This document shows, piece after piece, positions 20,556 to 61,922 of a stretch of 64,000 bases of DNA. The number at the start of each line of letters is the position of its first letter. Within the stretch, counting starts at the first letter, position 1. Position numbers and translations under genes: made by a program. The notes below the pieces were generated by a model that was not told the origin of the DNA, did not search any database, and saw nothing but the letters and a program-made list of their open reading frames with translations. Source of the stretch: a virus; the IMG/VR virus record IMGVR_UViG_3300033144_003384, positions 19,757-83,756 of that record; one strand, 5' to 3'.

Positions 20556-20980
20556 CGAAGGAAGAGCTACAAGCGATCGTCGACCGCGTATCAATCAACT
20601 GGAATGTCTACGAGATGCCAACACGACGCAAAGGTGCTTACAAGGTTTGGTGGCATTTTCTTAGCGACCTCGACTTTGACCTTGTGTCAAAGTATGTTGA
20701 CGAACGCGCCCTGGCGGGCGACTACCCACCACGACCCGGAGACGTACGCGGCGAATTGATTTATCGCAAGACAGGTATCGCGCCGCCAACGAAACAAGCG
20801 TGGGTTGAGTTTCAAAAAGCTCGCAGCGACCTTGAGTCCGGGGTTGATCCCGGCAACCTCGACCCTATCGTAGCCAAAACGATGAAGGAGATGGGGCGGA
20901 ACAATCAGAGGGACGTGTTTTTTCGCCTGTACGACGACAACCGCGGGGAATATTTTGCCAATGAATTGGACAGCCGATGA
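20552..20980 (+). CDS. putative helicase loader/inhibitor-like protein
   Basis: W...LSDLDF...YPPRPGD pattern; coupled to the primase-helicase gene. Confidence 0.45.
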   Translation: MTKEELQAIVDRVSINWNVYEMPTRRKGAYKVWWHFLSDLDFDLVSKYVDERALAGDYPPRPGDVRGELIYRKTGIAPPTKQAWVEFQKARSDLESGVDPGNLDPIVAKTMKEMGRNNQRDVFFRLYDDNRGEYFANELDSR

Positions 20981-22659
20981 AAGGCATTCCTCCGTGGGCT
21001 GACGGAGTTTTCGATCGCTTCAAGGGTGTTAAGACTTCCGGCAACGGCTGGTCGGTCATATGTCCTGCTCACCCAGATTCACACCCGTCTATGTCGATCT
21101 CTATTGGTACCGATGGTGACAAGCTGATTTTCAATTGTCATCGTGGCTGCGCTGTTGACGATATTGTGAAGTCTGCCGGACTTGAAATGAAGGACTTGTG
21201 GAAGCCGGGCTCGTCTCGCGACCGGAAGAAAAAAGAGTGGATAGCCAATTACGACTATACCGACGCTGAGGGCAATTTGATCTTTCAGGTAACCCGCTGG
21301 ATCGAGGGCGACGGTCGTAAAACGTTCACGCAACGCAAGCCGACGAAGGCTGGTGGCTGGGAATATTCGACTACGGGTTTGAAGAAGCCGATTTACAGGT
21401 ATCCGCAGATCAAGTCCGCTATTGAGCAAGGTCTCCCGATCTATGTTGCCGAGGGTGAGAAGGACGTTGCAACGTTGGTGACTGCTGGGGTACAGGCAAC
21501 TTGCAACCCAGGCGGTGCCGGGTCGTGGCAAGCAAATCACACGAAAGCTTTAGCTAAGGCGTCTCAGGTGTTTATTGTGCCTGACCGTGATGCTGTAGGC
21601 ATGTCTCACGCAGCTCACATCAAGGGCGAATTAGAAGACCTAGATGTTGAGGTTCACGTTGTTGGTCCCCCTGAGGGTAACAAGGATGTGACGTGGTTCT
21701 TTGAGAACGCTGGCGGTTCGCTGGCTGGTCTTGTGAGCATTGAGCTGTCGGCAGAGAATCAGGACCCGTTTGTTGACATCTTGACAGAGCTTCGCAGCTT
21801 GTCTAAACAGAACATGGCGTTTGAGAAGAAGCTGCACCGTGCCCGCTCAATGCTTGATATTGCAGAGTTCGACCCTACGGATTATGGGCGGCTGGTGAAG
21901 TGGGAAGATTTCCTAAAAGAGGGAGTCGATGATTACGATTGGGTAATTCCGGGGTTGTTGGAACGGCAGGAACGCGTTATTGTGGTTGCTGCGGAGGGTG
22001 TCGGCAAGACGATGCTTGCGCGGCAAGTTGCACTAATGTCGTCTGCTGGCATTTCCCCGTTTCGTAAGGATTCGATGCCGAAGGTTGCGACGCTGTTTGT
22101 TGATTTGGAAAACCCTGAGCGGATCATTAAGCGTACGTCTGCGAAGATTTTGGAGCGCATTCGTTGGGTCAAGCCTGACGTTGGTCCGCTGGATGCTCAC
22201 CTTCTGGTGAAGCCAGATGGCTTGGATTTGCTAAAGTCTGAGGATCGTGTCCTGTTGGAGCGCATTGTTGCCCAAACTGAGCCCGACATTATCTTCCTCG
22301 GTCCGCTGTATAAGGCAATGGTTGATCCGGGTGGCCGTACTGCTGAGGCTGTGACGACTGAGGTTGCAAAGTTCTTCGACTATATCAGGGATCAGTACAA
22401 CTGTGCTTGGTGGTTAGAGCATCACGCTCCTTTGGGTTCGTCGGATTCTGGTCGTCCGCTTCGTCCGTTTGGTTCGTCGGTGTGGTCTCGTTGGTCGGAG
22501 TTTGGTATCGCGCTGGCTCCCGATCCGATGATTCACCATAGGTTTGAAGTGAAGCACTATCGTGGCCAACGTGATGAGCGAGAGTGGCCTGCTGCGTTGG
22601 TGCGTGGCGATATTTGGCCGTTTGAGGCTGAATGGGTTGACAGTCACGGCACGATTTAG
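20977..22659 (+). CDS. DNA primase-helicase (Zn finger + TOPRIM + RepA-like AAA ATPase)
   Basis: CPAHPD...CHRGC, AEGEKD, PDRD, Walker A AAEGVGKT. Confidence 0.85.
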   Translation: MKGIPPWADGVFDRFKGVKTSGNGWSVICPAHPDSHPSMSISIGTDGDKLIFNCHRGCAVDDIVKSAGLEMKDLWKPGSSRDRKKKEWIANYDYTDAEGNLIFQVTRWIEGDGRKTFTQRKPTKAGGWEYSTTGLKKPIYRYPQIKSAIEQGLPIYVAEGEKDVATLVTAGVQATCNPGGAGSWQANHTKALAKASQVFIVPDRDAVGMSHAAHIKGELEDLDVEVHVVGPPEGNKDVTWFFENAGGSLAGLVSIELSAENQDPFVDILTELRSLSKQNMAFEKKLHRARSMLDIAEFDPTDYGRLVKWEDFLKEGVDDYDWVIPGLLERQERVIVVAAEGVGKTMLARQVALMSSAGISPFRKDSMPKVATLFVDLENPERIIKRTSAKILERIRWVKPDVGPLDAHLLVKPDGLDLLKSEDRVLLERIVAQTEPDIIFLGPLYKAMVDPGGRTAEAVTTEVAKFFDYIRDQYNCAWWLEHHAPLGSSDSGRPLRPFGSSVWSRWSEFGIALAPDPMIHHRFEVKHYRGQRDEREWPAALVRGDIWPFEAEWVDSHGTI

Positions 22660-22671
22660 TATCCTTGCAGC

Positions 22672-22766
22672 AGGAGAGGCTCCTGACAAAGCCCAAGGCC
22701 CCGGATGCGTGTCCCCCCCGCAGGCATTCTGCGGCCGCCCCTTCTATCCTGTCAGGGGTCTCTTCT
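22672..22766 (+). ncRNA. candidate sRNA: rod-like hairpin with a C7 apical loop (6C-like)
   Basis: own promoter TTGACA(22637)-N17-TATCCT; 17-bp basal stem whose G.U pairs work only on the + strand. Confidence 0.65.
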
Positions 22767-22838
22767 TCTGTCTTGACTTGTCTTGCCGAGTTGCTATAAT
22801 GAACTCCTGTAAGGCTCTAGACGATTAGGAGTTAGCCG

Positions 22839-23249
22839 ATGAATTTGAGCCCAATTACGCTCGTAGGTAATGCAACTGCCGACCCCGAGGTCACTACGAC
22901 CCCAGCCGGACACAAGAAGGTCACCTTCTCCGTCGCTGTTGAGCACCGTTACAAGCAAGGGGAAGAGTGGGTATCGAAGCCTTCCTTCTTCAATGTTGTG
23001 ACGTGGCGTCAGACTGCCGACCGTGTCGAAATGCTGCTTGAGAAAGGTATGGGCGTCATCGTGACGGGCCGCCTTGATCAAAGATCGTGGGAGAATGACG
23101 AGGGCCAGAAGAGGTCATTCGTTGAGGTTGTTGCAGACAACGTTGCGATCAACGTGTGGACGGTTGATTCCGTTACGCGTCGTCAGCGTCAGTCTGCTCC
23201 TGCTGGTGCTTCCGCTCCCAGTGGTGCGCCCGCGGATTCGCCCTGGTAA
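22839..23249 (+). CDS. ssb: single-stranded DNA-binding protein
   Basis: ITLVGNATADPE, VTGRLDQRSWE, DSPW tail; terminator 23272-23300. Confidence 0.95.
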   Translation: MNLSPITLVGNATADPEVTTTPAGHKKVTFSVAVEHRYKQGEEWVSKPSFFNVVTWRQTADRVEMLLEKGMGVIVTGRLDQRSWENDEGQKRSFVEVVADNVAINVWTVDSVTRRQRQSAPAGASAPSGAPADSPW

Positions 23250-23381
23250 CGAGTCAGCTCGAATAGGGAATAAGGGGCCCCGTGAGGGCCCCTTCTCTTT
23301 GCCCTCAGGGCACACTTGACTTTTCTGTAAATTTGGGCTACAATACGTAGCAAGGACGCCACAGAAAGTAGGGAGAGACAC

Positions 23382-24101
23382 ATGAGAAGGTATTTGCTAT
23401 TAGGGGCAGCGATCTTGGCGATAGTCGTATCGACTTTGCCCGTGTTGGCTGCGACCACGGAAGAATGCCGGGGATACAGCAACCACAGTGGGGAAATTCC
23501 CGGTCGTTATGACGTTGCTTACTTCTTTGAAAATGGTCACAACAACAATGAGTGGATCGGCCCTATCGTCGTTCCGGATGGTGGGCTGAGCTATCCGCCA
23601 CCTACCGGACGTAGGTCGTGGGACACAGTCAAAAAGTGCTACGTCACGGTGACAACCACGACCACCACCGAACCGCCAACTACGACGACGACGGTGTCGG
23701 ACACGACCACCACCGAACCGCCAACCACTACGACGACAGAACCACCGACAACCACAACAACAGTGCCGAACACAACAACTACAACGGTGCCGGACACAAC
23801 AACAACAACAACAACAGTGCCGAACACAACTACGACGACGGAATCGCCAACGACCACAACAGTTCCCGATACGACCACAACGACAGACCCGCCAGCGACT
23901 ACCACAACGATTCTTCCCGAGAAATGTGATGACGGTCTTGTTGTGAACGCCAACGGGGAGTGCGAACTCCCGGCAACAGGTTCGCCAGACATGAGCCTTT
24001 GGGCAGGGGTCGGCATGGTTGCCCTTTTGGTTGGAATATTGCTTCTAGCCTTGGGACGCAACAGGAGACTCAGCGAACAAGAACGGGTTGACATTACGTA
24101 A
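23382..24101 (+). CDS. secreted Thr/Pro-rich protein with LPXTG-type anchor
   Basis: signal peptide, TTTTEPP/TTTTVPD repeats, LPATG + TM helix + RNRR. Confidence 0.8.
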   Translation: MRRYLLLGAAILAIVVSTLPVLAATTEECRGYSNHSGEIPGRYDVAYFFENGHNNNEWIGPIVVPDGGLSYPPPTGRRSWDTVKKCYVTVTTTTTTEPPTTTTTVSDTTTTEPPTTTTTEPPTTTTTVPNTTTTTVPDTTTTTTTVPNTTTTTESPTTTTVPDTTTTTDPPATTTTILPEKCDDGLVVNANGECELPATGSPDMSLWAGVGMVALLVGILLLALGRNRRLSEQERVDIT

Positions 24102-24122
24102 CTTGCTTGCTATGCTAGAGAC

Positions 24123-24208
24123 AAGCACCTAACGGTGTGGGTGAGTCCCAGTGACTGATCCTCCTTTCTCGGAAGCGGAGGGGCCTTAGCGGGCCCCTTC
24201 TTCCGTTC
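24123..24208 (+). ncRNA. candidate sRNA exposing an anti-SD sequence
   Basis: promoter TTGACA(24088)-N17-TATGCT; two small hairpins, unpaired GAUCCUCCUUUCU, 3' GC-rich hairpin. Confidence 0.55.
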
Positions 24209-24237
24209 CGGGGTATTTACGGCTAGACTGCACGATT

Positions 24238-25197
24238 ATGCAATCCTGGCTAACACACGCAGAATCATGGCCTGCCGTAAACGCTCGCGGCGGTGCTATC
24301 AATGGAACTCCATTTCAAGAAGGCCCTACTCGCGTTGCCGTAGACACTTCGAACGCCGTCTCCGTACGGATAGCCGCACTGTCTTATGGCGAGAGCGGAC
24401 GAGTACCGCACTTCACACTTGACGCAACCACGGAAACCGTGGCACAACATCTCGACATTCAGCTTGCTCCCGTGAGTGTTACTGATTTTCCGGTTGAGCC
24501 CCACAGGTTCGGTCACAACATTTGGGTTACTGTCCTTACTCCCGCAGGGGAAACGCCTACAGCGAAAGAGTCAATGTGGCTGGGTGGCGAAGTCGCGAAA
24601 ATCGCAGCCGCCGCAGGCTCGCTCACCGAGCTGTATAGTGGCGATCCGATGGGTGTCGGCGAATGGTTGCGATTCGAAGGAGTTGCGTTTACTTCCGAAG
24701 TTCCACTCACGCATGCAAGCGATACGCGTGTCGACAAGGACATGTTCCTCCTCGGTCTTTATGGCAGTCCCGTTGCCTCGGGATTTGAGATTTCAGACGA
24801 AGACATTTCGCCTACTGTCGCCCAAACTTTGGAAGAAATCGAAAACGGTGACGTTACTACTGTTACGTCGATCGAAGAGTTCAGGGCTGCGCTCGATGAT
24901 GTTGATACGATCGAGACGGAGACGATCATGGTCACCCCGGTAGTCAACGAACCAACTGCTGTTGCGACAAACGAAGAGACTGTTCTCGGCAAATTCCCTG
25001 GTCGCAAAGTCCAAGTTGGGTCCGGCGGCAAAGCGGTTGCCACCATGAAAGAAGCATTCGGCTTAGGCAAAGGCAAGTTCGATGAAGAGCTTGAAGATCA
25101 CGTAAAGATGATTCAGGAACTGGCTGATCTTCACGTGGACGGCGTGGTAGATTCTGACACCTGGGCAGCAATTGACACACACCTCCTGGAGGAGTAA
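24238..25197 (+). CDS. peptidoglycan-binding protein with degenerate amidase-like N-terminus
   Basis: C-terminal PG_binding_1-like IQ...LHVDGVVDSDTW; N-terminal PHFTLD...VAQH. Confidence 0.55.
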   Translation: MQSWLTHAESWPAVNARGGAINGTPFQEGPTRVAVDTSNAVSVRIAALSYGESGRVPHFTLDATTETVAQHLDIQLAPVSVTDFPVEPHRFGHNIWVTVLTPAGETPTAKESMWLGGEVAKIAAAAGSLTELYSGDPMGVGEWLRFEGVAFTSEVPLTHASDTRVDKDMFLLGLYGSPVASGFEISDEDISPTVAQTLEEIENGDVTTVTSIEEFRAALDDVDTIETETIMVTPVVNEPTAVATNEETVLGKFPGRKVQVGSGGKAVATMKEAFGLGKGKFDEELEDHVKMIQELADLHVDGVVDSDTWAAIDTHLLEE

Positions 25198-25351
25198 TCG
25201 TGGAAAAGGAATACGACTATTTGAACCCTCCCCCCGAGGGCATTCCTGCTGATCCTCTGCCTGCCTGGAAGCAGGAGGGAGAAGCAGATGACACGGAGAA
25301 ATGGGACTGGTCGGACACGCCGCCTAACCCAACAGAAGGGAGGGCCGAGTA

Positions 25352-26356
25352 ATGGGTTACGAACACTCTTCACTTCTTTGGCTTCCCGACGCAATGCGTG
25401 CCGAGGGTCTGAACGTAATTGAACTCGATGGCTGGAAAGAGAACGAGCAGGGCTACTACTGGTCACGCCTTCGCGAGAGTGACGGCAGGCAGGTTCACGA
25501 CGGCTACATCGGCGATCCTCGTGGCTGGGTTTGGCACCACACGGCCACAAACGGATACACCCCATTTGTGAAAAACGGCCTGGGCCAGACGAAGGCAAAT
25601 ATTTTCATGGGCATGTGGCAGGGTGGATCGAACTACAGGCTGTACAACAGTGATGCCGGGCAGCCGACCGCTGTCATTGTCTCGGCTGGCCCCTCTGATT
25701 ACAGCAACGGATCGGGATATAAGCCAGTGCTTATAGATCACGTTGAAGCCGACATAAGGTTCTACGGTCCCCAGAAGAATTCAGACTCGTATCCGAAGTT
25801 CTACGGAAACCGCTTTATGGGTGGCACCGAAATCGTTCACCCCGGTAACGGAAGTCCCGTAAACCAAGGCGTGTTCCGTATGGCCTACATTACGGCGTCG
25901 CTTCTTTCAGAACATTACGAGTGGTCGATTTATCGAAACATCGGCCACCTGGACTGGAGTCGCAGAAAAATTGATCCAAGATTTGAACAGGGTTCGCCCT
26001 ACACGATGGGCCTATTCCAAGACGCGGCAGAAGGCTTCACAGCCGGAACAGTTACACCGCCACCAACAGAACCAATTCCACCCCCGACAGGAGACTACGA
26101 GATGCATACAGTCGTGAGAGGCGACGGGTACAACAGCAAGGGCACGGCAGAGAAGCGCCCTACGGTGAAGGCAGCACAGCTGATGCTTGCCCACTGGGGC
26201 TTCGCTGACAAGAGGTCCGAAGACGGTACTTGCGCAGCAGATGGCATTTTCGGTTCTGGTACGGAGTCCGCAGCCAAGAACTTCCAGGTCGCCAAGGGCC
26301 TCGTTGTTGACGGCAAGGTCGGTCCGGTTACCTGGGCACAACTAGAAAGCTGGTAA
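25352..26356 (+). CDS. endolysin (amidase_2-like + PG-binding domain)
   Basis: WHHTA, GHLDWSRRKIDP, ADGIFGSGT...VDGKVGPVTW. Confidence 0.85.
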   Translation: MGYEHSSLLWLPDAMRAEGLNVIELDGWKENEQGYYWSRLRESDGRQVHDGYIGDPRGWVWHHTATNGYTPFVKNGLGQTKANIFMGMWQGGSNYRLYNSDAGQPTAVIVSAGPSDYSNGSGYKPVLIDHVEADIRFYGPQKNSDSYPKFYGNRFMGGTEIVHPGNGSPVNQGVFRMAYITASLLSEHYEWSIYRNIGHLDWSRRKIDPRFEQGSPYTMGLFQDAAEGFTAGTVTPPPTEPIPPPTGDYEMHTVVRGDGYNSKGTAEKRPTVKAAQLMLAHWGFADKRSEDGTCAADGIFGSGTESAAKNFQVAKGLVVDGKVGPVTWAQLESW

Positions 26357-26363
26357 TCCCGAC

Positions 26364-26696
26364 ATGTGGGGAACTGGGCTCAGGCTGGTAGTTGCCTTTG
26401 CGTGGCTGACGGCTGGCTTTGTTTATTGGCGCGCCTATCGGTTCGAAACCACCACGGTATTCCGTCCCATGCGAATATATGCAGTTGGGGTGTCCTTTGC
26501 GTGGGGAATCTGGGAAGGGTACATCGGGATATATGGCGGGCTCTTGGGGCACGACCTTCCCGAAGCGGTGAAAAATGGGTCGATTACTCTCGGCTTACTG
26601 GTCTCTACGGTGGCATACTTCTTGTTGGCTGGGTACATTACCCACAGGGTCGTACAGGCTTACTTCCCTCCCGACATGGAGGACGATGATAGCTAG
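26364..26696 (+). CDS. membrane protein in lysis cassette
   Basis: three hydrophobic segments; follows the endolysin. Confidence 0.65.
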   Translation: MWGTGLRLVVAFAWLTAGFVYWRAYRFETTTVFRPMRIYAVGVSFAWGIWEGYIGIYGGLLGHDLPEAVKNGSITLGLLVSTVAYFLLAGYITHRVVQAYFPPDMEDDDS

Positions 26697-27136
26697 TGTT
26701 GGAACAATTTGGCGATCAGCTAATAGCCGTAGTTGTCGCACTCGTCGGTCTTGGCGGTGCGGCTTTTGTCGGACGTTCTACCAATCGCAAACTCGATCGT
26801 GAGGGTGCCGACGCAATCTCGCGTGCCGCGGTGCAGCTTGTCGATCCACTAGAGCAACGCCTCGACAGGTCGGACAGCGAGAACGAGGGGCTTCGCATGA
26901 GGATTACCGCCCTTGAGGCAGAGGCCAGAGACCTCGAAACATTCCGATTTGAGAATCAGCACTTGCGTGAACGCGTGAAGTATTTGGAGATGCAAGTTGA
27001 TCTCTTGAGGGAGCGCGCCGACTATCGTGAGGAGTTGGAAAGGGCAATGGCTTCCGCCAAGGAAGAGATTGTTCTGCTCAGGGATCAGATTAGGTCTTTG
27101 GGCCATGACCCGGTAACCGAACAAGGGACTGATTGA
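26696..27136 (+). CDS. membrane-anchored coiled-coil protein in lysis cassette
   Basis: N-terminal TM segment then heptad-rich region. Confidence 0.65.
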   Translation: MLEQFGDQLIAVVVALVGLGGAAFVGRSTNRKLDREGADAISRAAVQLVDPLEQRLDRSDSENEGLRMRITALEAEARDLETFRFENQHLRERVKYLEMQVDLLRERADYREELERAMASAKEEIVLLRDQIRSLGHDPVTEQGTD

Positions 27137-27387
27137 TGTCAGACTTCGTAATTGCTCAGATTCGGACATATGTTCCGATGGGCGTTGGGATGCTTTTGTC
27201 TTGGTTGGTCGCCCAAGGAATGCTCGATGAGGCAACTTCTATGGAAGCTGTCGCAGCGATTTCCGCTGGCTTGACTGCCGTTCTCGGTGGTCTCTACTAC
27301 TTTGTTGTCAGGATGGCAGCGAAGAGGTGGCCAGGCGTGGGTGTCCTTCTTGGATATAACAAAGCTCCTGCATACACAGAAGAGTAA
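27136..27387 (+). CDS. putative holin
   Basis: IRTYVP...YYFVVR..KRWP..GVLLG pattern of actinophage holins; two TM segments. Confidence 0.7.
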   Translation: MSDFVIAQIRTYVPMGVGMLLSWLVAQGMLDEATSMEAVAAISAGLTAVLGGLYYFVVRMAAKRWPGVGVLLGYNKAPAYTEE

Positions 27388-27422
27388 CGCTAGGAGGTGG
27401 CGGATTTGTTGGGGCTTCGGCC

Positions 27423-29055
27423 TCAGCTTTTCCGTCTCCTTTTCCGTTTCGGGATAGCTGGCTTGAGGTCTTCGTGACGGTAGAACCTGCTGCGTCCGTC
27501 GTTGTCTAGTAATTGGTATCCAGTTAGCGCACCGTCTTTTTCGATGAAGCGCATGATGGTCATGATGCGATTGCTTCCGTCTTTTGCTTTGACCTTGTCC
27601 CCCGGTACGAACGTGTTCATGAACACCACCCTACCATAGTGTCAAGGAATTGTCAAGCCGTTCGGTTCTTCGGGAACATCAGCGGGTTCGTAATTGAGGA
27701 CGAATCCGGCACGCTCCATCGTCTCCATAGCTTCGGCCAGTTCTTCCTCTGTTGGGGGGCTCCCGAGTTCCAGAAGCTCGTCCATGGTTTTCAGTACGTC
27801 ATCGACCTTGTCGCTGACTTCTTCAAGTAAGCCTTTCACATCTGCTGGCGTTGTGGTGATCCTCAGCCAGTTCAAGATTGGGCTCCTTGCGAACTTCAGG
27901 ATTATGGCGAGGGCAGCAAGCAGGGCGGCTACGGTGACGAGCCCGCTTGATAGCGAGTTTAGGAGTTCCATTTGCGCAAGCCTTTCCAGTGGGTTATCAA
28001 GCTTCTTGGCCGAATTCGGTGAGGGCTCCGCCGAGCCCATGGGCTGAATCAAGGTGCAGGATGTACAGGTCTGCGACAATCTCCCACATAGCCGCTACGT
28101 CTTCCCTGACTTCGTGTTTCGATACGATTTCTCCGCATCCGATGTATTCCTCGATGGAGCCGTTTGTTCTTTCGATTGCTATGCGTTCGCCTGCTTCGCA
28201 TCGCAAGGTAACCGTGCTGCCTGCCGTGACCGGAAAGGAACTTTCGTACTCCTTGGCCATTGTGTCGCGGATGTAATTGATCTCTTCTCTGGTCAAACTC
28301 ATCGTATTAACAGGCTAGCCGCAGGGATTGCAACCGAGGCTTACTTGCCTGCGAGTTTCCTAACTTGAGTTCCGCCAAGCACAACCATCGCTGATTGAAC
28401 TTTCGGTCGCCCCCCAACCATGCGCGCTTCGATGGTTACACTTTCTTGAGTAATCTCAAGGGCGGATGCGAGACGAGCCCTTACATCGGACGTATAGGAC
28501 ATGAGAGTAGCCTCTTCGTTGATTTCCACGGTGTTGTCCCTGTCATAGGAACATAGGCCACAGCCAATCTTCTTGCCTGGAGCTTTTCTCTTACGCAATT
28601 CCAGATGACCGCACTCCATCCAGTGCTCCCACCAGACATCGGGATAGCCGCCAGTTCTGACGATATCGACGACTCTACGCTTTGGCGCGTGTCTTCGTGT
28701 CAAGATATTCCTCCGCGCTTTCGATGGCGTCGTAGAGGTTTTGTGACCATGGCGACATCAAGGTTTCCGACCAAGGCGTTCCGATCCAATCCGGGTATTC
28801 GACCGGGTTGCCAGAAAGGATTTGCTTTGTCGTAGGGGGAGGCGCTGCGACAACCATCTCTTGGTAGAGGGCGAGAGCTTTTTTCTGAAGTTCGTGCTGT
28901 TCGTCGACCCATTCGAAATCTCGGTCATGCGGTTCGCCTTCGACCTTCAACATGGCACGCAACCCTGGCGAACCTTGTGGGGGAAGCCAACTTGGGTCGT
29001 CTTGATATGCCAGGAGAGCAATCATTAGTTCATCTGGCAGATGTCGGTCGGTCAT
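27423..29055 (-). other. five hypothetical genes
   Basis: ORFs at about 27423-27629, 27642-27970, 27997-28302, 28341-28703 and 28675-29055. Confidence 0.55.
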
Positions 29056-29100
29056 AGTTTCTTTCCGGCTGAGTTCATGCTATTACCATAGCTCGGGTGA

Positions 29101-29205
29101 GGCCGCTTCGGAAGGGTTTCCCTTCCTCTTCCCTGTCCAGCCGGGGTGGCCAGAGCGAAGGGTCTGGGGTGTAGCGTTTCCTCCTTTCCGCTGCATCCCA
29201 GGCTC
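29101..29205 (+). ncRNA. candidate two-hairpin sRNA with CU-rich/anti-SD loops
   Basis: 17-bp stem 29160-29176/29189-29205 with four G.U pairs and loop UUUCCUCCUUUC; first hairpin loop UUUCCCUUCCUCUU. Confidence 0.7.
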
Positions 29206-29727
29206 TTACTTATCGGGAGTCTTGGGGCGCTCAATCTGGATGCGCTCAACCTCCCCCTTCGTTTCCACAGGAACCCATGCTTGACTATATTTGTGTTCTT
29301 TCATCTTTTTGCGCTTCAGCAAGTCGCCTTCAGCTAGCACCTGGAATTCGTCCACAGTCATATTGAGGATCATGCGCAGTTCGTCTGTGCTGTACTTTTT
29401 GCTGCGCACTACACGCTTGATGAGTCGGGATAGGTCTTTCGCCACTATCTGTCCTCGTCCGCGGTTGAGCTGTACGTGCTTCAACATGGCATTGATCTCT
29501 GGGCCACACAGCCACACAACAGGTATAGGAAGGATCGACGGTTCGTCTTGCGCTATAAGCCACCGCGCATATCCGTCAATGATGTAGCCGTCCTCATGGG
29601 CCACGATTGGCGCAAGCCATCCGGCTTTTAGCGAGGCCGTCAATACCTTCAAGTCTGGTCGAAGAATATGGGTAGTTCTCCAGGGGGCTGGTTTTAGGTT
29701 CTCTGGCTGCACATATTCAATGTTCAT
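29206..29727 (-). CDS. ParB/Srx-like protein (IbrB-like)
   Basis: GWLAPIVA..IIDGYARW, HVQLNRGRG. Confidence 0.8.
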   Translation of the reverse strand: MNIEYVQPENLKPAPWRTTHILRPDLKVLTASLKAGWLAPIVAHEDGYIIDGYARWLIAQDEPSILPIPVVWLCGPEINAMLKHVQLNRGRGQIVAKDLSRLIKRVVRSKKYSTDELRMILNMTVDEFQVLAEGDLLKRKKMKEHKYSQAWVPVETKGEVERIQIERPKTPDK

Positions 29728-30048
29728 TCCGATTCCTTCAACCATCCGCAGTTCTTGCAATACTCGCCACCTGAGACGAGTTCGTTCGACATGTCAATCC
29801 ATTCGTGTTCTGAGCAATCATCGAGGACGAGGTGACGTTTAGTGGAGTCGATTGCTGCCCACAGTTCGTATGACTTTTTGCACACAAGGTGAGTACACAG
29901 CTCATACACGTCACAGACCATTCCAACGGAATACTGGCCTAGCTCGATCACGTTCAGTAAGGCTGTGATGGACTCGTTATTGGGGTCGATTCCTTCTTTG
30001 TCCCATAGCGGATCGTCGTAGGTTGCCGAAAAGCGAACGGGTTTCTTT

Positions 30049-30450
30049 TTACTTCTCTTGAAGCCCATAGGTTCCTTCATAATCTACATAAACGAGATGC
30101 GGGATGCGTTTCGTTGCGAGCAGCTTGATCATGCCTTTTGTGCCGTGGCTTTCTCCGTCCCACAGGACGAACGCGAAGTCGGGCGGGACGTTCACCATTT
30201 CGTTGTTGCGAATATGTCCTGCCTTTTTGCCGTACTTATTCCAGTCGGCTGGCATGTACAAAATCTCATGCTTGTGGGAAAGGGCCCAGTGCTCGCCCGA
30301 AGTGTCTACGCCCCCGGCTGTGCCGGAGATGATTACGTGTTGCGTGTAGAGACGCTGTTCGGAGTCTAACGACCCGAGGGCGTGGTCGATTAGGCGCACT
30401 GGTGCGTATCGGTTTCGGCTGCCTGCGATAAGGAATCTTGCCATAGCCAA
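30049..30450 (-). CDS. SLOG/DUF2493 (YspA-like) protein
   Basis: IAGSR, ISGTAGGVD, ADWNKYGKKAGHIRN, WDGESHGT. Confidence 0.85.
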   Translation of the reverse strand: MAMARFLIAGSRNRYAPVRLIDHALGSLDSEQRLYTQHVIISGTAGGVDTSGEHWALSHKHEILYMPADWNKYGKKAGHIRNNEMVNVPPDFAFVLWDGESHGTKGMIKLLATKRIPHLVYVDYEGTYGLQEK

Positions 30451-30495
30451 ACCCTACCCGATCGTCAAGGAAATGTCAACACGTACGGTAGTGTT

Positions 30496-31659
30496 CTATA
30501 CGGTATCGTCGAGGAGGTCCATGTTGTTGGCATCCATGACCTCCTGGTGAGCGACACGCATTGTGTTCGCCCTTGTCTTGGGGCCGACCGGGGTAGGGGA
30601 TGACACGAAAAACTCATTCAGCAACAGTGTTCGAATCAAATGATCCAGTGGGTACGAATACGGGTCTGTGACGTGTTTCTTGCGGTACTTCGACACGAAT
30701 ACCTTCGCCCCTTTCTGTAGGCCAGGGGTCAACATATTCTCTTCAATGCACATCTTCACGCCATCCCATCCGAATGATCCGTACGTTTCGATGAGGGCCT
30801 GGACGTCAAACTCCCCCCACAGTCTGCGCTGTGCGTCGATCTGGGGGAACGCCGTAACGAGCCTGTCGTAGAACTCCGGTTCCGTAACAACAACGTCGTT
30901 GAGCCTGCGCGCAGCGATTGAGTGCAACGGAATTCCGACCCTTGGATTTGCTGTCGTCATATCGGCGTAGTCGTAGAAGGCACAGTAGTCGGCACCGTGT
31001 TCGTCAATGATGAATTTCATGACGTCATCCGACGTCCAGTCGTAGATGATTTTGGCAAACCTGAGCGGTACGGCTTTCGACATCCGATATGGGCGATTGA
31101 TGTAGTTCTCGTGGAGCTTCTGTGTCACGGACCTGTATCGGATCATCGACTCGTTGGCGCGTACCCCCGTGATGAAGGCGGTCATGCCCTCTTTGCCCTG
31201 CATCGTGTAGTAGTCCACGGATTTCGGAACAGGCTTGTTGCGATCAAGCCCAAAGTCGGATGCCATGATGGCCCCCTCTGGGATTGGCCGGACAAGGCGG
31301 CCTTCGGCTTCTCTCTGCGCTGACCACAGCAGAACGTACTCTCGCCTGCCAAGCACCCAAACTTCTTGCCCCATTGGGAGGCAATACCATTCGAGGTCGA
31401 TCCAGCTATAATCACGTACACGTTCAATGAAGTCGATTACGGAAGGCGAAACCATTTCTTCGTCTCGGAAGATGACCTTGACTGGCCCCAGCCCGCGTTC
31501 TTCGTGTATCTCTTTGGCAAGATAGATAACAGCAGTGGAGTCTTTGCCGCCAGAGAATTGGACAGCAACGGTGTCGAATGTGTCGTAGACGTGCCGGATG
31601 CGTTCCCGAGCAGCCTTTAGGACGTTTGTGTGGTCCAGGAATAGCCGTTTCCGAGCCAT
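30496..31659 (-). CDS. PAPS-reductase-like PP-loop protein (IbrA/DUF3440-like)
   Basis: FSGGKDS, FRDEE, GVRANES..R, IYDW. Confidence 0.85.
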   Translation of the reverse strand: MARKRLFLDHTNVLKAARERIRHVYDTFDTVAVQFSGGKDSTAVIYLAKEIHEERGLGPVKVIFRDEEMVSPSVIDFIERVRDYSWIDLEWYCLPMGQEVWVLGRREYVLLWSAQREAEGRLVRPIPEGAIMASDFGLDRNKPVPKSVDYYTMQGKEGMTAFITGVRANESMIRYRSVTQKLHENYINRPYRMSKAVPLRFAKIIYDWTSDDVMKFIIDEHGADYCAFYDYADMTTANPRVGIPLHSIAARRLNDVVVTEPEFYDRLVTAFPQIDAQRRLWGEFDVQALIETYGSFGWDGVKMCIEENMLTPGLQKGAKVFVSKYRKKHVTDPYSYPLDHLIRTLLLNEFFVSSPTPVGPKTRANTMRVAHQEVMDANNMDLLDDTV

Positions 31660-32171
31660 TCTTTACCGTCCTTGACATATACCACGGGTTGTTCGTGGTC
31701 CTTTAGGTCTATGGCAATATCCCTCAAGATGGTTTCCCAGAACTTTTCGTGATCCCCAAAGTCGGGGTCGTCGGGGATATAACTGATCCCGATGCTGCAC
31801 GGTTCTTTAGTCCAACCCAAAATCTTATCATCGTCGTCGACGTAGATTTCGTGAAGGTTGTCGTCGTGCCAGGTGCTGCTTTCGGTTTCCGTGATGTTGC
31901 GAACGATTCCGTAACGCCAACGCATCAGAGTCCTTCCGGTACGTGCATGATGGACGGGGTGCCCTCTCCTGCCCATAAGCATTCGATGTTATGTCCGTAA
32001 TAGTCCAAGGCTTCCTCGTAGGACTGGCCTTCGTTGATCAAGATAGTAATGATCTTCTCGTAAGAGTATACCACACGAGTTGGCTGCGTATGGGTGTGCG
32101 CAATTCCAAGAATAGCGTCGTCGAGCCCGTCGAAAACGATTAGCTCTTCTTCGGATATGTTTGCGTATTCG

Positions 32172-32924
32172 TCAATCTGTTCGCGAATTCCCACCGAATA
32201 TCTCCTTTTCCAGATACGCAACAAGTTGCGCTCCTGTTGTGTTGCCCGGATAGTCGTCGCTTCTTGCCTTTAGCCACCGAATAAAGTCGTACCAGCGTGC
32301 CTGGTGGTTTTGGGATTCAAAGACGAGCGTGTATTGTACGAGGTGTCTCTTCGATCCGGACAGTCCAGCGGCAGTAGAGCCAGACGTGACTAGGTCTTTC
32401 TCCATGTCTTTGTCTCCGGTAAAGTGGAGCTGTTCGTCATCTTCGCTGATGAGTTCGGGCGGTTGCCATCCGACGTTCGCTGGCGAAGGCTCCGGGTTGA
32501 GGACTGGCTCCATGGCCGCCATCTCATATTCGTCCCAAGCTAATGCCTCGAATACGTCTCCGTATTCTTCAAAATGCTGTTCTAGCATCTCGTACACAAT
32601 GTTGGTGTCGATGGTTCCGAGTTCTGATGTACGGTTGTCGGCTAAGGCATATGCGGCGGCTTTGCTGTCGTCGAAAGGAACCCTGGTGGCTGCTATGTGC
32701 GTCCAGCCTAGTTTGATTGCACCCTTCAAAGAGGTATTTCCGGCAATGACGGTGAGGCCCCCGTCGGTGTCCTCGACCACCACGACGGGTTTGGTCTGTC
32801 CGAATCTGTCATAGGATGCGGCAACCGCGTCAACGTCACCATGCCTGGGGTTGATCGGCAACAGCTTGATTGTGTTGATTGGCGTGATTAGCGATAGCAG
32901 GTCTTCGTGGATTTTGTGCTTCAT
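32172..32924 (-). CDS. ParB-like N-terminal domain protein
   Basis: NPRHGD, FGQTKPVVV, VIAGN, LADNRTSELG. Confidence 0.8.
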   Translation of the reverse strand: MKHKIHEDLLSLITPINTIKLLPINPRHGDVDAVAASYDRFGQTKPVVVVEDTDGGLTVIAGNTSLKGAIKLGWTHIAATRVPFDDSKAAAYALADNRTSELGTIDTNIVYEMLEQHFEEYGDVFEALAWDEYEMAAMEPVLNPEPSPANVGWQPPELISEDDEQLHFTGDKDMEKDLVTSGSTAAGLSGSKRHLVQYTLVFESQNHQARWYDFIRWLKARSDDYPGNTTGAQLVAYLEKEIFGGNSRTD

Positions 32925-33615
32925 AGCTTTTTCGTTATGCATGTGCAGCAGCGCCATTCGATAAGCTTTCTACCCGCTGGAGCGTAGTCAAAGACAACTT
33001 CAACCCATTCGCCACAGCTAAAGCACTGAAACTCGCCGTTCTCGTTCATACTGTGCTCGACCAGCCTTCGTCTTCGATGAGGCCCGGACACCAACTACCA
33101 ACATAGTCTTCCTGAAAGTGGCCCAAAGCTTCTGTGTCAGAATGTTCGCAAAGCCAGTACATTTTCTCTGGTTCGCCGAGTGCTATGAGGACAGCTTCTT
33201 TGAAGTCTTCGCCAGCAATTGTCTCACCGTTTTTCCACCGTTCGAAGTCTTTTCCAAACAGATGCCTAGCACCTCTGTTGTAATTGATCACGTTTGTGCC
33301 CTTACGTTTGCCGAAAGCGTCCGGAGGGCATCAATGGAAGTCCGGAGACCGTGCATCTTTTCGCGCTTTGCTCGCATAAGAGCATCGGCGACCTTCATGT
33401 CAAACATCTCGTCGGCGTTCTCATAATCGGCCCACGCCTCTTTCTCCTTGACTGACCCTTCCTTCTTTGCCAAAAACGTCATGGCCCACTGTTTCTTGAA
33501 GCGTGCCTGTTTCTTTGCTTCATCTTCTGCCGCAATAGCAAAGTCGTCGGTTTCTTGTTCAAGTAAGGCTACGAGCCTTACAAGTTCTTCTTCGATCTCA
33601 ATTTGGCTAATCGGC

Positions 33616-34167
33616 CTATGGTTGGTCGTCATCTTGTCCAGTATTGTCGATTTCGATGCCCCAGTCAACTGCCTCCAACGCAGAGAGGTTCACTTTCGGC
33701 CACGTTCTGTCTGATTGCCCATATGCAACCATTCCCATTTCTTGCAAAATCCATGCGTCACACTGATCGTCGGCACCCTTGCCGCTGAACGTCATGCCCG
33801 TACGTGCAGAGATGGCAGACACAACTTCGGACTTGTTGGCATTGCCCTTTCCGGTTGCGAATTTGGCGCGGTTCGTTGGCGGCACGATAATAACTTGCCA
33901 ATCGTTTTCGTACCAAGACAACTTCATCACCCCGCCAAGTTCTCCGATGGAATGTGCTTGGCTGTGCCTGGCTGCGAAAGAATATCCCTCGACAACGATG
34001 ACGGGGTTTTCATATCTTGCGATAAAGTCGTTCACCTCGCGTCGGATAGCGAATAGGCGGACAGCACCTTTCTGCTTGGGTTGTATGACTTCGAGCTTTC
34101 CGTCAGGTAACGCAAGGCCCGTAGAGGTAAGGGATAGGTCTACCCCGATGATTGTTGGGGGGGTCAT
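33616..34167 (-). CDS. RuvC-like Holliday junction resolvase
   Basis: IGVDLSLTSTG, VVEG, KFATGKGNANK, DQCDA. Confidence 0.85.
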   Translation of the reverse strand: MTPPTIIGVDLSLTSTGLALPDGKLEVIQPKQKGAVRLFAIRREVNDFIARYENPVIVVEGYSFAARHSQAHSIGELGGVMKLSWYENDWQVIIVPPTNRAKFATGKGNANKSEVVSAISARTGMTFSGKGADDQCDAWILQEMGMVAYGQSDRTWPKVNLSALEAVDWGIEIDNTGQDDDQP

Positions 34168-34553
34168 GTTTCGCCTTTCAGCCACTCGGGAGTAGCTGGC
34201 TCGCCGCTTGTCCATGACAGACGAACGTGGTATGCCTCATCATACATCCAGTCGTGTGCCCAACCGGGGAGGGCGAGCCCGAGGGATTCCGATAGTGCCG
34301 GGTTGTTGCCGATGTTCGTATGGCACTGTCGGCAGATTGACAAAAGGTTGCGCTCTTCGAGAATGGAGCCACCTTGCGACCGTCGCTTTAGTTCGTGGAT
34401 ATCGGATGATGGCCGCCGGTTGTACACCACGGCACCATCGTAGGCGGCAAACACGGGGCAGGCTTCACATGCCGGTCGCTCTCGTAGGAGTCGCTCAACG
34501 AGGGGTCGCCTTTGCCTGTAGATGGTTTCCTGCTTTTTGGATCGGTACCTCAT
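34164..34553 (-). CDS. HNH-like endonuclease
   Basis: CEAC...DIHE.KRRSQGG...NLLSICRQCH. Confidence 0.75.
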   Translation of the reverse strand: MRYRSKKQETIYRQRRPLVERLLRERPACEACPVFAAYDGAVVYNRRPSSDIHELKRRSQGGSILEERNLLSICRQCHTNIGNNPALSESLGLALPGWAHDWMYDEAYHVRLSWTSGEPATPEWLKGET

Positions 34554-35629
34554 GCGAGCGAAGCTATCAGTCCGTCCCATTTCGCTGCGCCCCATTTGGC
34601 GTCGAGCGGCTCTAGGGCGACACGTTGGCGGTCTGCCTCTTCTTGTCTGACTGCTGGATCACGAAGTTCTTTGAAGTGCTTAACCCACTGGGCGTTGTTT
34701 TTGGCTGTGCGGCCAATCTTGTATTCTTTCTTCAGTCGCTTGTATTCGCCAGAGTCGGAGGCTACGAACGGGATTCCTGCAGCTGCGTACTCGATACCTT
34801 TGATCCAGCTTTTCGATTCATTGAATGGTGATTTGCGAATCGGGACGACCCCGATGTCGAACCGCATGAGGTCGTCGAGTCGTTCGGGTGGTACGGGGAG
34901 GAGGATGGTGACGTCGTCTTTCCCGAGCCCGACGACGTCGTAAAAGTGTGGGTGATATCCGACGTGGCCTGAATGGTGGTATCTCCACCCTTCGGTGCCG
35001 ATCGTTCGGTATAGGCTTTTCAATATGTCGAGGTCTCCGGATGTGCGGTGTGCTGTTGATCCGATCCATCCGACAGTTGGCCGGTCTTCTTCTTCGTGTA
35101 CATGTGGCGTGAATTTGTCGAGTTCTACATGGTTCTCCATGATGTGAATTTTGTCGGATGCAACGAATTGACTTAGTCTTTTCGCTAAGTAGGGGGTGGA
35201 TGTGATGACGGCGTCCGACACGGCGAGCGTCTTGCGATAGTGGTCGGTGTTTTCGTTTGGGTGGGCTCTTGGGTGTGAGGCGTAGTAGGCGAGATTGCCC
35301 GGTCCGAGGCCCCAATACCAGTCGTCGATGTCGTTAACGATTACGACACCTTTCTTCCTAACTGTTTTGATCTGTTCGGGAATCGAGGCATGCATCCATC
35401 GCTGCATTACGATCATGTCAAGCCCGTAAGTGAGGTCTTCCGAATCGAATTTACGGATGGCGAATTCTTGAACAGCCGGGTCCCAGGCGAGTTCGCCGAG
35501 CACGTAGTTGTGGTTCGTGTATCGGAGGTACTGACCGAGACGGATATGTCCGGCTCCGCCAAGGATTTGCGATCCGTCTAGGCGAACTGCTTCTGTTACG
35601 AAGTCGCCGGTCGCAATCCCGACTTTCAT
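34550..35629 (-). CDS. GT-B glycosyltransferase
   Basis: DIDD, VGWIGS..H, DIGVVP...FNESKS.IK.IEYAAAGIP. Confidence 0.85.
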   Translation of the reverse strand: MKVGIATGDFVTEAVRLDGSQILGGAGHIRLGQYLRYTNHNYVLGELAWDPAVQEFAIRKFDSEDLTYGLDMIVMQRWMHASIPEQIKTVRKKGVVIVNDIDDWYWGLGPGNLAYYASHPRAHPNENTDHYRKTLAVSDAVITSTPYLAKRLSQFVASDKIHIMENHVELDKFTPHVHEEEDRPTVGWIGSTAHRTSGDLDILKSLYRTIGTEGWRYHHSGHVGYHPHFYDVVGLGKDDVTILLPVPPERLDDLMRFDIGVVPIRKSPFNESKSWIKGIEYAAAGIPFVASDSGEYKRLKKEYKIGRTAKNNAQWVKHFKELRDPAVRQEEADRQRVALEPLDAKWGAAKWDGLIASLA

Positions 35630-36129
35630 TCCAAGTCGGCTTCTGTGATTTCGTCGAACACCCACGTACCACCAAGTGATGCCCATAGCGCTTCATCTAT
35701 GACGTTGTAGTCAACGTCGTATTGCTCAATGAGTGCCTTGTGCTTTTCGATGGACTTTTGAAGGAACGCAGTCATGGACATGTCCTGTTCGGATGTTTCT
35801 CCGAGGGCAATGAGGCGGTCTGCTTCGGTGAGGCGTTGCTCTACGTAAAAGCGAAACCGTTCAATTTTCTTCTTGCGTTCACTGAAGTTGTGACGCGCTT
35901 CGAAGAGAAGAGTTTTCCCGGCTTCGCCCATAGCGTTGTATCGCTCTCCGGCGACTTTCTCTTCCTTCTCGATTTCATACACTTGCGAGTCGAGGCTGTT
36001 GAGAAGCCGCTTGGCTTCTTTCCTCCAGCGTCCTCGCACGTCGGGAGAACGGAGGTAATCTTTCTGTTCGTCAGTAGCTCTGTTCTTTACGTCTTCAGCT
36101 ACGAGACGAGCAAATGCGTCGTCGTTTAG
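35626..36129 (-). CDS. hypothetical coiled-coil protein
   Basis: ORF within the operon; start uncertain. Confidence 0.6.
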   Translation of the reverse strand, partial: LNDDAFARLVAEDVKNRATDEQKDYLRSPDVRGRWRKEAKRLLNSLDSQVYEIEKEEKVAGERYNAMGEAGKTLLFEARHNFSERKKKIERFRFYVEQRLTEADRLIALGETSEQDMSMTAFLQKSIEKHKALIEQYDVDYNVIDEALWASLGGTWVFDEITEADLE

Positions 36130-36145
36130 CACTGTTAGTTCCTTG

Positions 36146-38258: not shown

Positions 38259-38268
38259 GGGTCCCCTT

Positions 38269-38787: not shown

Positions 38788-38794
38788 AGCCTAC

Positions 38795-38816
38795 ATGATA
38801 GTCGAACCCTGTGACA
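38795..38816 (-). promoter_or_regulatory. PafBC/RecA-NDp-type promoter
   Basis: TGTCAC-N10-TATCAT. Confidence 0.6.
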
Positions 38817-40325: not shown

Positions 40326-40582
40326 TATGGTCGCGCGATGTTTGCAAAGATTTCATAACGCTGACGAGCTTCAGTTAGATGTTGCGGCGGTGGGTTCACT
40401 CGCTAAATCTGGCAGTAGAAGAAGCTCCGGTACGGCTAGAAGGCAGTCTTAATGACCGACCTCCCGAGACCACATGGAGCGCCAGCGCAGTTCCCAGCGA
40501 TATGGGGGAGAGTGACAGGACCGAACTCATACAGTCCTGTTGGGCCAAGATACATTTAACATCCGGATCAACCACATAGCTA
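40326..40582 (-). ncRNA. candidate ~255-nt structured RNA
   Basis: gap without a convincing ORF; several nested stems with G.U pairs on the minus strand; upstream TAAAAT. Confidence 0.5.
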
Positions 40583-61901: not shown

Positions 61902-61922
61902 CCGCTCCTAACGGAGCAATAA

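What the first reader, a model, noticed from the sequence alone, without database searches (positions are those of the whole stretch)
22637..29205. Candidate system: anti-Shine-Dalgarno sRNAs in a phage rich in leaderless mRNAs
Seen: three intergenic RNAs (22672, 24123, 29101) expose CCCCCCC, GAUCCUCCUUUCU and UUUCCUCCUUUC in unpaired regions, and a fourth (40326-40582) bulges UCUCCCCC. Many promoter-proximal phage genes appear leaderless. Inference: the sRNAs could mask SD sequences to suppress leadered host translation or time phage genes, sparing leaderless mRNAs. Caveat: several phage genes, including the capsid gene, do have SDs, so targeting may be selective.
Basis: inference. Interest (0 to 1): 0.8.

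Follow-up and report, generated by a model that had tools for sequence, protein, structure and literature searches.

The report
Phage RNAs displaying ribosome-tail-like loops
An uncultured phage carries two or three short non-coding RNA units that hold out sequences copying the ribosome's mRNA-docking tail, so they probably mask ribosome-binding sites of some genes, but nothing yet shows that they are made or that they favour the phage's leaderless genes.

Summary
Observation partly confirmed. R1 (22672-22770) and R2 (24123-24208) each follow a consensus promoter, end in a GC hairpin, lack a credible ORF, and expose C7 and CCTCCTTTCT; the latter equals 10 nt of a 16S 3' tail read. R3 (29160-29205) is a 17-bp hairpin with 4 G.U pairs that works only on the + strand, with loop TTTCCTCCTTTC, but it has no good promoter. 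The fourth RNA is rejected: its motif lies on the other strand and the fold is no better than shuffles.

Leaderless genes are real: 10 of 35 strong promoters have ATG 6-8 nt after the -10 box, against 0.15 in shuffles.

New evidence: relatives carry a covarying hairpin family with the same anti-SD loop (8 of 24 pairs compensatory). R3 is the window's only match to its model, weakly (E 0.24).

Against the system idea: about 86 of 146 phage genes are SD-led, and predicted pairing is barely better at start regions than inside genes. No RNA data and no close relatives were available.

Best reading: base-pairing sRNAs of the 6C/cuckoo kind with selected targets (0.4); plain terminators are the main rival.

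This scan has flagged similar anti-SD-loop phage RNAs on other DNA.

The parts
22637..22665 (+). Promoter of R1 (TTGACA-17-TATCCT), overlapping the last codons of the primase-helicase gene
   Evidence: 10 of 12; 35 such sites against 2.9 in shuffles. The closest relative, L081 (62% primase), has TTGACA-17-TACAAT at the same place.
22672..22770 (+). R1: ~100-nt hairpin RNA with apical C7 loop (22713-22719) and a U/C-rich tail
   Evidence: z -4.59 on + against 0.16 on -; C7 unpaired 0.98. The only + ORF inside the unit is 23 aa without an SD.
22773..22800 (+). Separate promoter of the ssb gene (TTGACT-16-TATAAT, with TG). It shows that R1 is not needed as the ssb leader.
   Evidence: 11 of 12. 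ssb identified by Pfam PF00436, E 9e-28.
24088..24116 (+). Promoter of R2 (TTGACA-17-TATGCT with TG), overlapping the stop codon of the LPXTG-type gene
   Evidence: 10 of 12.
24123..24208 (+). R2: ~86-nt RNA made of two small hairpins, a single-stranded CCTCCTTTCT (24160-24169), then a GC hairpin (about 24170-24205)
   Evidence: No + ORF of 20 aa or more. The 10-nt tract is identical to the 16S 3' end read in L174.
24238..25197 (+). First gene of the lysis block (PG_binding_1 domain). It is probably leaderless, with TAGACT 8 nt before the ATG.
   Evidence: The endolysin follows at 25352-26356 (phrog_880).
29101..29152 (+). 5' hairpin of the R3 region
   Evidence: -25.3 kcal/mol on +, -21.7 on -.
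29160..29205 (+). R3: 17-bp hairpin with 12-nt loop TTTCCTCCTTTC (29177-29188), antisense to the flanking minus-strand genes
   Evidence: It is the only window hit of the model built from the relatives' hairpin family (15.8 bits, E 0.24).
29083..29196 (-). Rival reading of R3: a 37-aa ORF, or an orphan RBS-like GAAAGGAGG, on the coding strand of the neighbouring genes
   Evidence: The codon score is low (3.5), and no start codon lies 3-13 nt after the SD-like 9-mer.
40326..40582 (.). Fourth 'RNA': rejected as a structured RNA

Best explanation
R1 and R2 are small non-coding transcription units. Host RNA polymerase would start at a consensus sigma-70-type promoter placed in the 3' end of the preceding gene. 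It would transcribe about 85-100 nt of folded RNA and stop at a GC-rich hairpin with a U/C tail. R3 is a hairpin of a type conserved in related phages.

Each holds a C/U-rich tract single-stranded: C7, CCUCCUUUCU and UUUCCUCCUUUC. Two of these copy the 3' tail of 16S rRNA.

Inferred mechanism: these tracts act as seeds that pair with purine-rich ribosome-binding sites and block 30S binding on a limited set of mRNAs. Candidates include:
- the phage's four genes with the perfect GAAAGGAGG site;
- the endolysin start region;
- host mRNAs.

This is how 6C RNA of actinobacteria and the cuckoo/CcsR/NfeR1 RNAs are thought to work. I read it as selective regulation, not a global switch in favour of leaderless mRNAs.

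Shown: the motifs, their predicted accessibility, the promoters, the strand-specific folding and a conserved relative of R3. Inferred: that the RNAs are made, that they pair in trans, and what their targets are.
For: - Promoters of gene-promoter quality precede R1 and R2. The false-positive rate is about 8%: 35 observed against 2.9 in shuffles.
- Folds are strand-specific and the motifs are accessible.
- No credible ORF lies in R1 or R2.
- R2 and R3 are the only intergenic orphans of the 9-mer: 2 of 6 copies here against 0 of 28 in relatives.
- Identity to a 16S tail was read directly: 10 nt for R2, 9 nt for R3.
- Relatives carry a hairpin family with 24 pairs, 8 of them with compensatory changes, 95.8% of cells paired, 0 of 500 shuffles reaching this, G.U pairs on the anti-SD strand, and a constant loop UUCCUCCUUC (one variant in L101).
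- R3 is the window's sole hit to that model.
- The nearest relative, L081, has a promoter at the same primase-end position followed by a hairpin whose loop begins CCUCCU.
- L041 and L164 carry promoter-to-terminator units with C7 or pyrimidine loops.
- The mechanism has precedent: the 6C abstract and cuckoo passages.
Against: - No expression data: no RNA run holds the stretch.
- No relative closer than 62% primase identity was reachable, so R1 and R2 have no covariation test.
- R3 has no recognisable + strand promoter, and its model hit is not significant (E 0.24).
- Seed-to-start-region pairing is hardly better than controls: 1, 1 and 2 of 146 start regions pass the 1% control quantile for R1, R2 and R3, and one of R3's two is merely its own antisense.
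- CCTCC is not enriched downstream of orphan promoters in relatives: 9 of 116, against 17 of 167 for SD-led promoters and 5 of 100 for leaderless ones.
- All three hairpins sit where terminators are expected.
- In relatives the conserved hairpin follows a gene end without a good promoter.
- In unrelated phages the same 18-mers are ordinary RBSs on the other strand.
Confidence: 0.4

Rival explanations
1. Ordinary transcription punctuation. The three hairpins are terminators or insulators at gene ends. The pyrimidine tracts belong to loops and U/C tails, and the promoter-like sites upstream of R1 and R2 produce only by-product transcripts.
For: - Each hairpin sits directly after a gene end: primase stop 22659, LPXTG gene stop 24101, ParB-like gene end 29206.
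- The clear terminator after ssb has the same GC hairpin plus U/C tail, as do those in the left arm.
- In relatives the conserved hairpin lies between a gene end and the promoter of a leaderless gene, with a U-run in some copies and no good promoter of its own.
- There is no start-region enrichment.
Against: - Terminator loops are not normally held constant while stems covary.
- Two consensus promoters firing straight into hairpins are the only such gene-less units in the genome.
- R3's hairpin works on the strand opposite to all neighbouring genes.
- None of the three hairpins is among the 25 sites found by the T-run terminator scan.
Confidence: 0.3
2. R2 is a cis-acting leader. A strong promoter is held in check by a promoter-proximal terminator just before the lysis block, as with lambda pR'-tR'/6S RNA. 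Read-through, and so lysis timing, would be controlled by an antitermination factor.
For: R2 lies immediately upstream of the lysis block: PG-binding protein at 24238, endolysin at 25352, then membrane proteins. The own promoter of the next gene is weak (TTCCGT-17-TAGACT, read).
Against: - No Q-type antiterminator family matches the record at E up to 1. The record is estimated only 56% complete.
- A read-through mRNA would place the ATG at 24238 without any SD.
- This reading does not explain R1 or R3.
Confidence: 0.1
3. Decoys of the 16S 3' end. The tail-like tracts bind a protein or enzyme that recognises the ribosome's tail (an rRNA-cutting toxin, S1/S21, IF3) rather than mRNAs.
For: - R2 copies 10 nt and R3 9 nt of the 16S tail.
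- Relatives carry 'type B' elements whose anti-SD strand reads like the last ~20 nt of 16S.
- The phage also carries a tmRNA-like gene and 14 tRNA genes.
Against: No partner protein was found: a PemK/MazF-family search of the record found nothing. In type B the better-folding strand is the SD-like one, not the 16S-like one. The idea is pure inference.
Confidence: 0.07
4. R3 belongs to the minus strand: an orphan or decayed ribosome-binding site, or the 37-aa ORF 29083-29196, inside the leftward operon.
For: - The minus strand is the coding strand there.
- GAAAGGAGG is this phage's best RBS, used 4 times.
- The same 18-mer is a real RBS in another phage lineage: 7 loci, one shared context.
- ORFs exist there, one ending in an ATGA overlap with the next gene.
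Against: - No start codon lies 3-13 nt after the site.
- The hairpin has 4 A.C mismatches on the minus strand: -15.7 against -29.1 kcal/mol.
- The ORF's codon score is only 3.5.
- Intergenic orphans of the 9-mer were 0 of 28 in relatives.
Confidence: 0.1

Closest known systems
6C sRNA (B11) of Mycobacterium and other high-GC Gram-positive bacteria (PMC6486639; abstract read)
   Same: A short folded RNA whose C-rich loops pair directly with mRNAs through G-C pairs without a chaperone. R1 has a C7 apical loop. No Hfq was found in the record. The primase's nearest named phage relatives infect actinobacteria.
   Different: No Rfam match at gathering score or at E up to 10. R1 has one C-run loop, not several. 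It is phage-borne and shows no sequence similarity.
Cuckoo / CcsR1-4 / NfeR1 RNAs of alphaproteobacteria (PMC4615179, passages read; PMC8034643 and the NfeR1 papers seen in a listing only)
   Same: Hairpins whose loops carry an anti-SD-like motif while the stems vary freely. That is the pattern seen in the relatives' hairpin family and in R3.
   Different: The motif here is UUCCUCCUU(U)C, not CCUCCUCCC. There is one hairpin per element, not 2-4. The CcsR1 model scores 12.9 bits against a cut-off of 65.3. The host group is different.
c4 antisense RNA of phages P1/P7 (passage in review PMC12197685)
   Same: A phage-encoded RNA whose loop sequences pair around a ribosome-binding site and block translation of a phage gene.
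   Different: c4 targets one specific mRNA (ant) through specific complementarity. It does not carry a generic 16S-tail copy.
T4 RegB endoribonuclease (recalled, no paper read)
   Same: A phage device aimed at the Shine-Dalgarno sequences of its own early mRNAs to shut them off.
   Different: It is a protein nuclease that cuts GGAG, not an RNA that masks it.
Lambda 6S RNA / pR'-tR' leader (recalled)
   Same: A strong promoter followed about 85-200 nt later by a terminator just before the lysis and late genes, as for R2.
   Different: It needs a Q antiterminator, which was not found here. It also has no 16S-like tract.

Membership tests
6C sRNA (Rfam family; accession recalled as RF01066) | Match to the Rfam covariance model | tested here: not met
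   13 gathering-score matches in the window, 1 tmRNA and 12 tRNA, none 6C; 8 matches at E up to 10 in 22600-24300, none 6C.
6C sRNA | Two or more hairpin loops each with a run of about six C | tested here: not met
   R1 has a single C7 loop. C7 occurs only twice on the + strand of the genome.
6C sRNA | C-rich loops pair with mRNA targets | not testable with these tools
   Duplex predictions show no start-region preference for the R1 loop: -14.35 against -14.91 kcal/mol for controls.
Cuckoo / CcsR / NfeR1 | 2-4 adjacent hairpins each with loop CCUCCUCCC (PMC4615179) | tested here: not met
   None of R1-R3 contains that 9-mer. R3 has one anti-SD loop.
Cuckoo / CcsR / NfeR1 | Match to the Rfam model (CcsR1, RF02791) | tested here: not met
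   12.9 bits against a gathering score of 65.3, E 1.3.
Cuckoo-like design (works-like test) | Loop motif constant while stems covary | tested here: met
   For the relatives' family: 8 of 24 pairs have compensatory changes, and the loop is constant in 4 of 5 distinct copies. This is not testable for R1 or R2.
   It is the only hit in 64 kb on both strands, but scores 15.8 bits at E 0.24. True members score 73-88 bits.
Relatives' anti-SD-loop hairpin family | Position 13-22 nt upstream of a leaderless PAPS-reductase-like gene, on the sense strand | tested here: not met
   R3 lies after the ParB-like gene and is antisense to it. The window's PAPS-reductase-like gene has no such hairpin upstream.
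Intrinsic terminator | GC-rich hairpin at a gene end | tested here: met
Intrinsic terminator | Run of T (at least 5 in 8) right after the stem | tested here: not met
   None of the three hairpins is among the 25 sites of the scan of 21500-41400. Their tails are U/C mixtures.
Lambda-type promoter-proximal terminated leader | A Q-type antiterminator gene in the genome | tested here: not met
   PF06530 and PF03589 give no match at E up to 1. The record is estimated 56% complete.
Leaderless mRNA genes | Start codon 6-8 nt after a -10 box, with no room for an SD | tested here: met
   10 of 35 strong promoters, against 0.15 expected. In relatives, 100 of 383 unique strong promoters.

The most novel reading that the evidence does not exclude
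This phage lineage may run an RNA-based takeover of translation initiation. The phage would make copies of the 16S 3' tail (R2, R3 and the relatives' conserved anti-SD-loop hairpin). Some relatives would also make 13-nt perfect complements of that tail without a start codon. Together these would titrate Shine-Dalgarno sites and/or the ribosome's anti-SD, shifting initiation toward the leaderless first genes of phage operons.
Probability: 0.07. Interest if true: 0.9.

Novelty: new variant of a known kind. Interest (0 to 1): 0.55.

Why it matters
Small RNAs that mask ribosome-binding sites with C-rich or anti-SD loops are known from bacterial chromosomes.

My four full-text searches and one review of phage sRNAs (passages read) turned up no phage-encoded class of this kind and no link to leaderless genes.

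If R1-R3 are made and active, they would give a simple, testable route by which a phage of a Gram-positive host retunes which mRNAs are translated. The conserved hairpin family in relatives offers a ready set of natural variants for testing this.

If they are only terminators, the constant 16S-like loop still needs an explanation.

Tried and rejected
Expression
- The look-up of sequencing runs listed 2 DNA holders with small shares and no RNA holder.
- Laying both runs gave only short fragments identical to the window, with no variants. This gave no conservation or expression information.

Closer relatives
- megablast against GenBank phages found nothing.
- Single-protein scans of IMG/VR with the primase, the 24238 gene and the 28675 gene found nothing.
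- blastn-short and nhmmer of the four regions against the 173 loci then held gave only chance-level hits.
- Exact 16-19-nt words of R1 and R2 have no match in IMG/VR.
- The R3 word has 7 matches, all one lineage's RBS.

Known families
- Rfam gave nothing at gathering score or at E up to 10.

Host
- The 111-nt stretch around the tmRNA-like gene matched 152 of 401 sampled genomes of the phylum of a Frankia record, but only over 25-49 nt (best 86% over 47 nt), so no host was named.
- That sample included genomes marked unpublished (G122, G320, G228, G050, G241, G003, G020, G345).

Other checks
Hfq: not found.
- C6+ runs in hairpin loops across relatives: no family emerged.
- General link between anti-SD motifs and leaderless genes inside this genome: rejected. 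Only R2 has CCTCC within 100 nt upstream of a leaderless start (positions).
- The ssb 5' inverted repeat that would hide its SD probably starts before the transcript does, so it was dropped.
- Supplementary files of papers were not consulted; they may hold sRNA lists relevant to the novelty claim.

Full report
What the DNA is
- The window is the right 64 kb of an 83,756-bp single-contig virus record, estimated 56% complete.
- Its primase-helicase is about 30% identical to those of Arthrobacter, Microbacterium and Gordonia phages: 165 GenBank phage records match, all below 60%.
- It has many uncultured relatives: 1365 proteins at E up to 1e-20, the best at 63%.
- The flagged stretch holds these features, in order:
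  - primase-helicase (20977-22659);
  - ssb (22839-23249);
  - a gene with a Thr/Pro-rich stalk and an LPATG motif (23382-24101);
  - a lysis block starting at 24238;
  - a convergent hairpin at 27408;
  - a long leftward operon that includes a ParB-like gene (29206-29760) and a PAPS-reductase-like gene (30496-31659).

The motifs
- All three main motifs are present, within a base or two of the stated places.
- R1 folds into a ~100-nt hairpin with C7 as its apical loop (unpaired 0.98). Fold z is -4.59 on + against 0.16 on -.
- R2 leaves UCCUUUCU fully open and the preceding AUCC paired. Fold z is -2.55.
- R3 is a 17-bp stem with a 12-nt loop that is entirely the motif. Four G.U pairs make it -29.1 kcal/mol on +, against -15.7 on -.
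- The fourth RNA fails. The quoted motif lies on the other strand, and neither strand folds better than shuffles: z -0.46 and -1.66.

Are they transcription units?
- Promoter-like sites scoring at least 10 of 12 number 35 in the genome, against 2.9 +/- 1.5 in 40 dinucleotide shuffles.
- By my rough classing, 21 lead to an SD plus start codon, 10 to a start codon 6-8 nt after the -10 box, and 4 to neither. One of the 21 is R1's own promoter, which the lenient rule put in the SD class although no gene follows it.
- The sites before R1 and R2 are of this quality.
- R2 is the only gene-less promoter-to-hairpin unit that my scan of the genome picked out; R1 is of the same build by eye.
- ssb has its own stronger promoter right after R1.
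- The gene after R2 has TAGACT 8 nt before its ATG.
- R1 and R2 hold no credible ORF.
- R3 has no + strand promoter of 9/12 or better.
- None of the three hairpins passes the T-run terminator scan. Their U/C tails do resemble the tail after the obvious ssb terminator.

Is the anti-SD likeness more than chance?
- A 16S 3' end read from a Frankia genome ends GGATCACCTCCTTTCT. R2 shares 10 contiguous bases with it and R3 shares 9.
- The 9-mer CCTCCTTTC occurs six times on the + strand, and its complement never does.
- Four copies are reverse complements of textbook promoter-SD-ATG modules of minus-strand genes. The two without a start codon are R2 and R3.
- In about 2 Mb of related phage DNA the 9-mer is an RBS 17 times, lies inside long open frames 11 times, and is never an intergenic orphan.
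- Intergenic orphans are therefore unusual: 2 of 6 here against 0 of 28 in relatives.

Leaderless genes
- These are confirmed. 10 of 35 strong promoters have ATG 6-8 nt after the -10 box, against 0.15 in shuffles.
- In relatives the figure is 100 of 383 unique strong promoters.

Comparative evidence
- No relative close enough to align R1 or R2 was reachable. The best is L081 (62% primase), a 3.6-kb contig that ends 76 nt after the primase gene.
- L081 has TTGACA-17-TACAAT at the same spot as R1's promoter, then an 8-bp hairpin whose loop starts CCUCCU.
- Screening intergenic orphans of AAGGAGG in relatives revealed a hairpin family I call type A:
  - 24 pairs and loop UUCCUCCUUC;
  - 5 distinct copies among the primase-anchored loci, plus one more in IMG/VR;
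  - 8 of 24 pairs with compensatory changes, 95.8% of cells paired, and 0 of 500 shuffles reaching the observed covariation;
  - G.U pairs on the anti-SD strand.
- Type A always lies 13-22 nt before a leaderless PAPS-reductase-like gene. Five other distinct relatives have a different upstream sequence there.
- Type A follows a gene end and has no good promoter of its own.
- A model built from four copies finds R3 as its only hit in the window, but weakly: 15.8 bits, E 0.24.
- R3 also shares the words GGTGTAGCG and CCCTG..CCGGGG with elements next to the ParB-like gene of relatives. This is suggestive only.

Evidence against the system idea
- My crude gene calls give about 86 of 146 genes with an SD and about 13 leaderless ones. 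The leaderless genes are the first genes of operons whose later genes use SDs.
- Seed-to-start-region duplex energies barely differ from coding-interior controls.
- CCTCC is not enriched after orphan promoters in relatives: 9 of 116.
- R1 and R2 use the same promoter type as the strong-SD genes they might shut off, which weakens a simple timing switch.
- In unrelated phages the same 18-mers are plain RBSs on the other strand.

Comparison with known systems
- 6C RNA pairs with mRNAs through C-rich loops without a chaperone (abstract).
- Cuckoo RNAs keep an anti-SD-like loop on variable stems (passages).
- Phage c4 RNA blocks an RBS with loop sequences (passage).
- R1-R3 work like these on paper but belong to none of them: the Rfam tests fail.
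- My searches found no paper on phage-encoded 16S-tail-like RNAs or on a link to leaderless genes. Supplementary files were not seen.
- Earlier notes of this scan list similar anti-SD-loop candidates: 49 findings in at least 47 genomes hold the search words, and 8 were shown. They also contain first-reader notes on R1, R2 and R3 from the overlapping window. These are leads, not support.

Verdict
- R1 and R2 are probably real short non-coding units. R3 is a real + strand hairpin of a conserved kind. R4 is not a feature.
- The most likely function is selective masking of ribosome-binding sites (0.4). Plain transcription punctuation comes close behind (0.3).
- The leaderless-sparing takeover remains a bold, low-probability reading (0.07).

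Noticed in passing
L005:10833-10922, L090:12864-12955, L130:4173-4268 and 17 more (alignment A2): Relatives with 45-51% primase identity carry a conserved ~85-100-nt RNA directly after the primase gene. It has a consensus promoter, an outer stem that changes in a paired way by eye, an inner hairpin with an invariant A[AG]CAC, then a terminator. 20 unique copies were found. Six of those loci gave no Rfam match, and the family is absent from this phage.
   Followed up: partly
L093:14708-14772(-), L103:12358-12421(-), L110:16172-16235(-), L049:17171-17233(-), L101:18414-18477(-), L200: The type A hairpin family with anti-SD loop UUCCUCCUUC. It has 24 pairs, 8 of them compensatory, and always lies 13-22 nt before a leaderless PAPS-reductase-like gene.
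   Followed up: yes
L093, L101, L138, L147, L049, downstream of the ParB-like gene homologue: An orphan SD-like tract, up to 13 nt perfectly complementary to the 16S 3' tail, with no start codon. It sits between a small hairpin and a terminator in the 3' region of the convergent gene. The SD-bearing strand folds better by 6-15 kcal/mol. It is complementary to the type A loop of the same phages.
   Followed up: partly
L041:5223 and L164:2004: Promoter-to-terminator units in distant relatives. One has a C7 apical loop plus a terminator loop UUUCCUUCUUUCU. The other has loops UUUCCGCCUUUCU and GAUCCGCCUCCC.
   Followed up: no
window 896-975 (-) and 60881-63961 (+): An 80-nt tmRNA-like gene (Rfam, 71.9 bits) and 14 tRNA genes by ARAGORN. 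Earlier notes of this scan also report a reduced RNase P RNA at 62940-63508, which I did not test.
   Followed up: no
window 23382-24101 (+): A gene with its own promoter encoding a protein with a long Thr/Pro-rich stalk, an LPATG motif, a hydrophobic helix and a basic tail. This is a sortase-substrate layout. It has no Pfam or PHROG match.
   Followed up: no
window 22801-22838 (+): An inverted repeat GAACTCCT...AGGAGTT that could hide the ssb SD. However, the predicted transcript start (about 22807) lies inside its 5' arm.
   Followed up: partly
genome 13987, 14764, 24770, 29451 (window -5769, -4992, 5014, 9695), minus strand: Four small genes of unknown function, each with a consensus promoter and the perfect 9-nt SD GAAAGGAGG. 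They are the best-matched possible targets of R2 and R3.
   Followed up: partly
window 29052-29249 (-): A 65-codon open frame across the R3 gap ends in an ATGA overlap with the next gene's start. This is probably chance.
   Followed up: no
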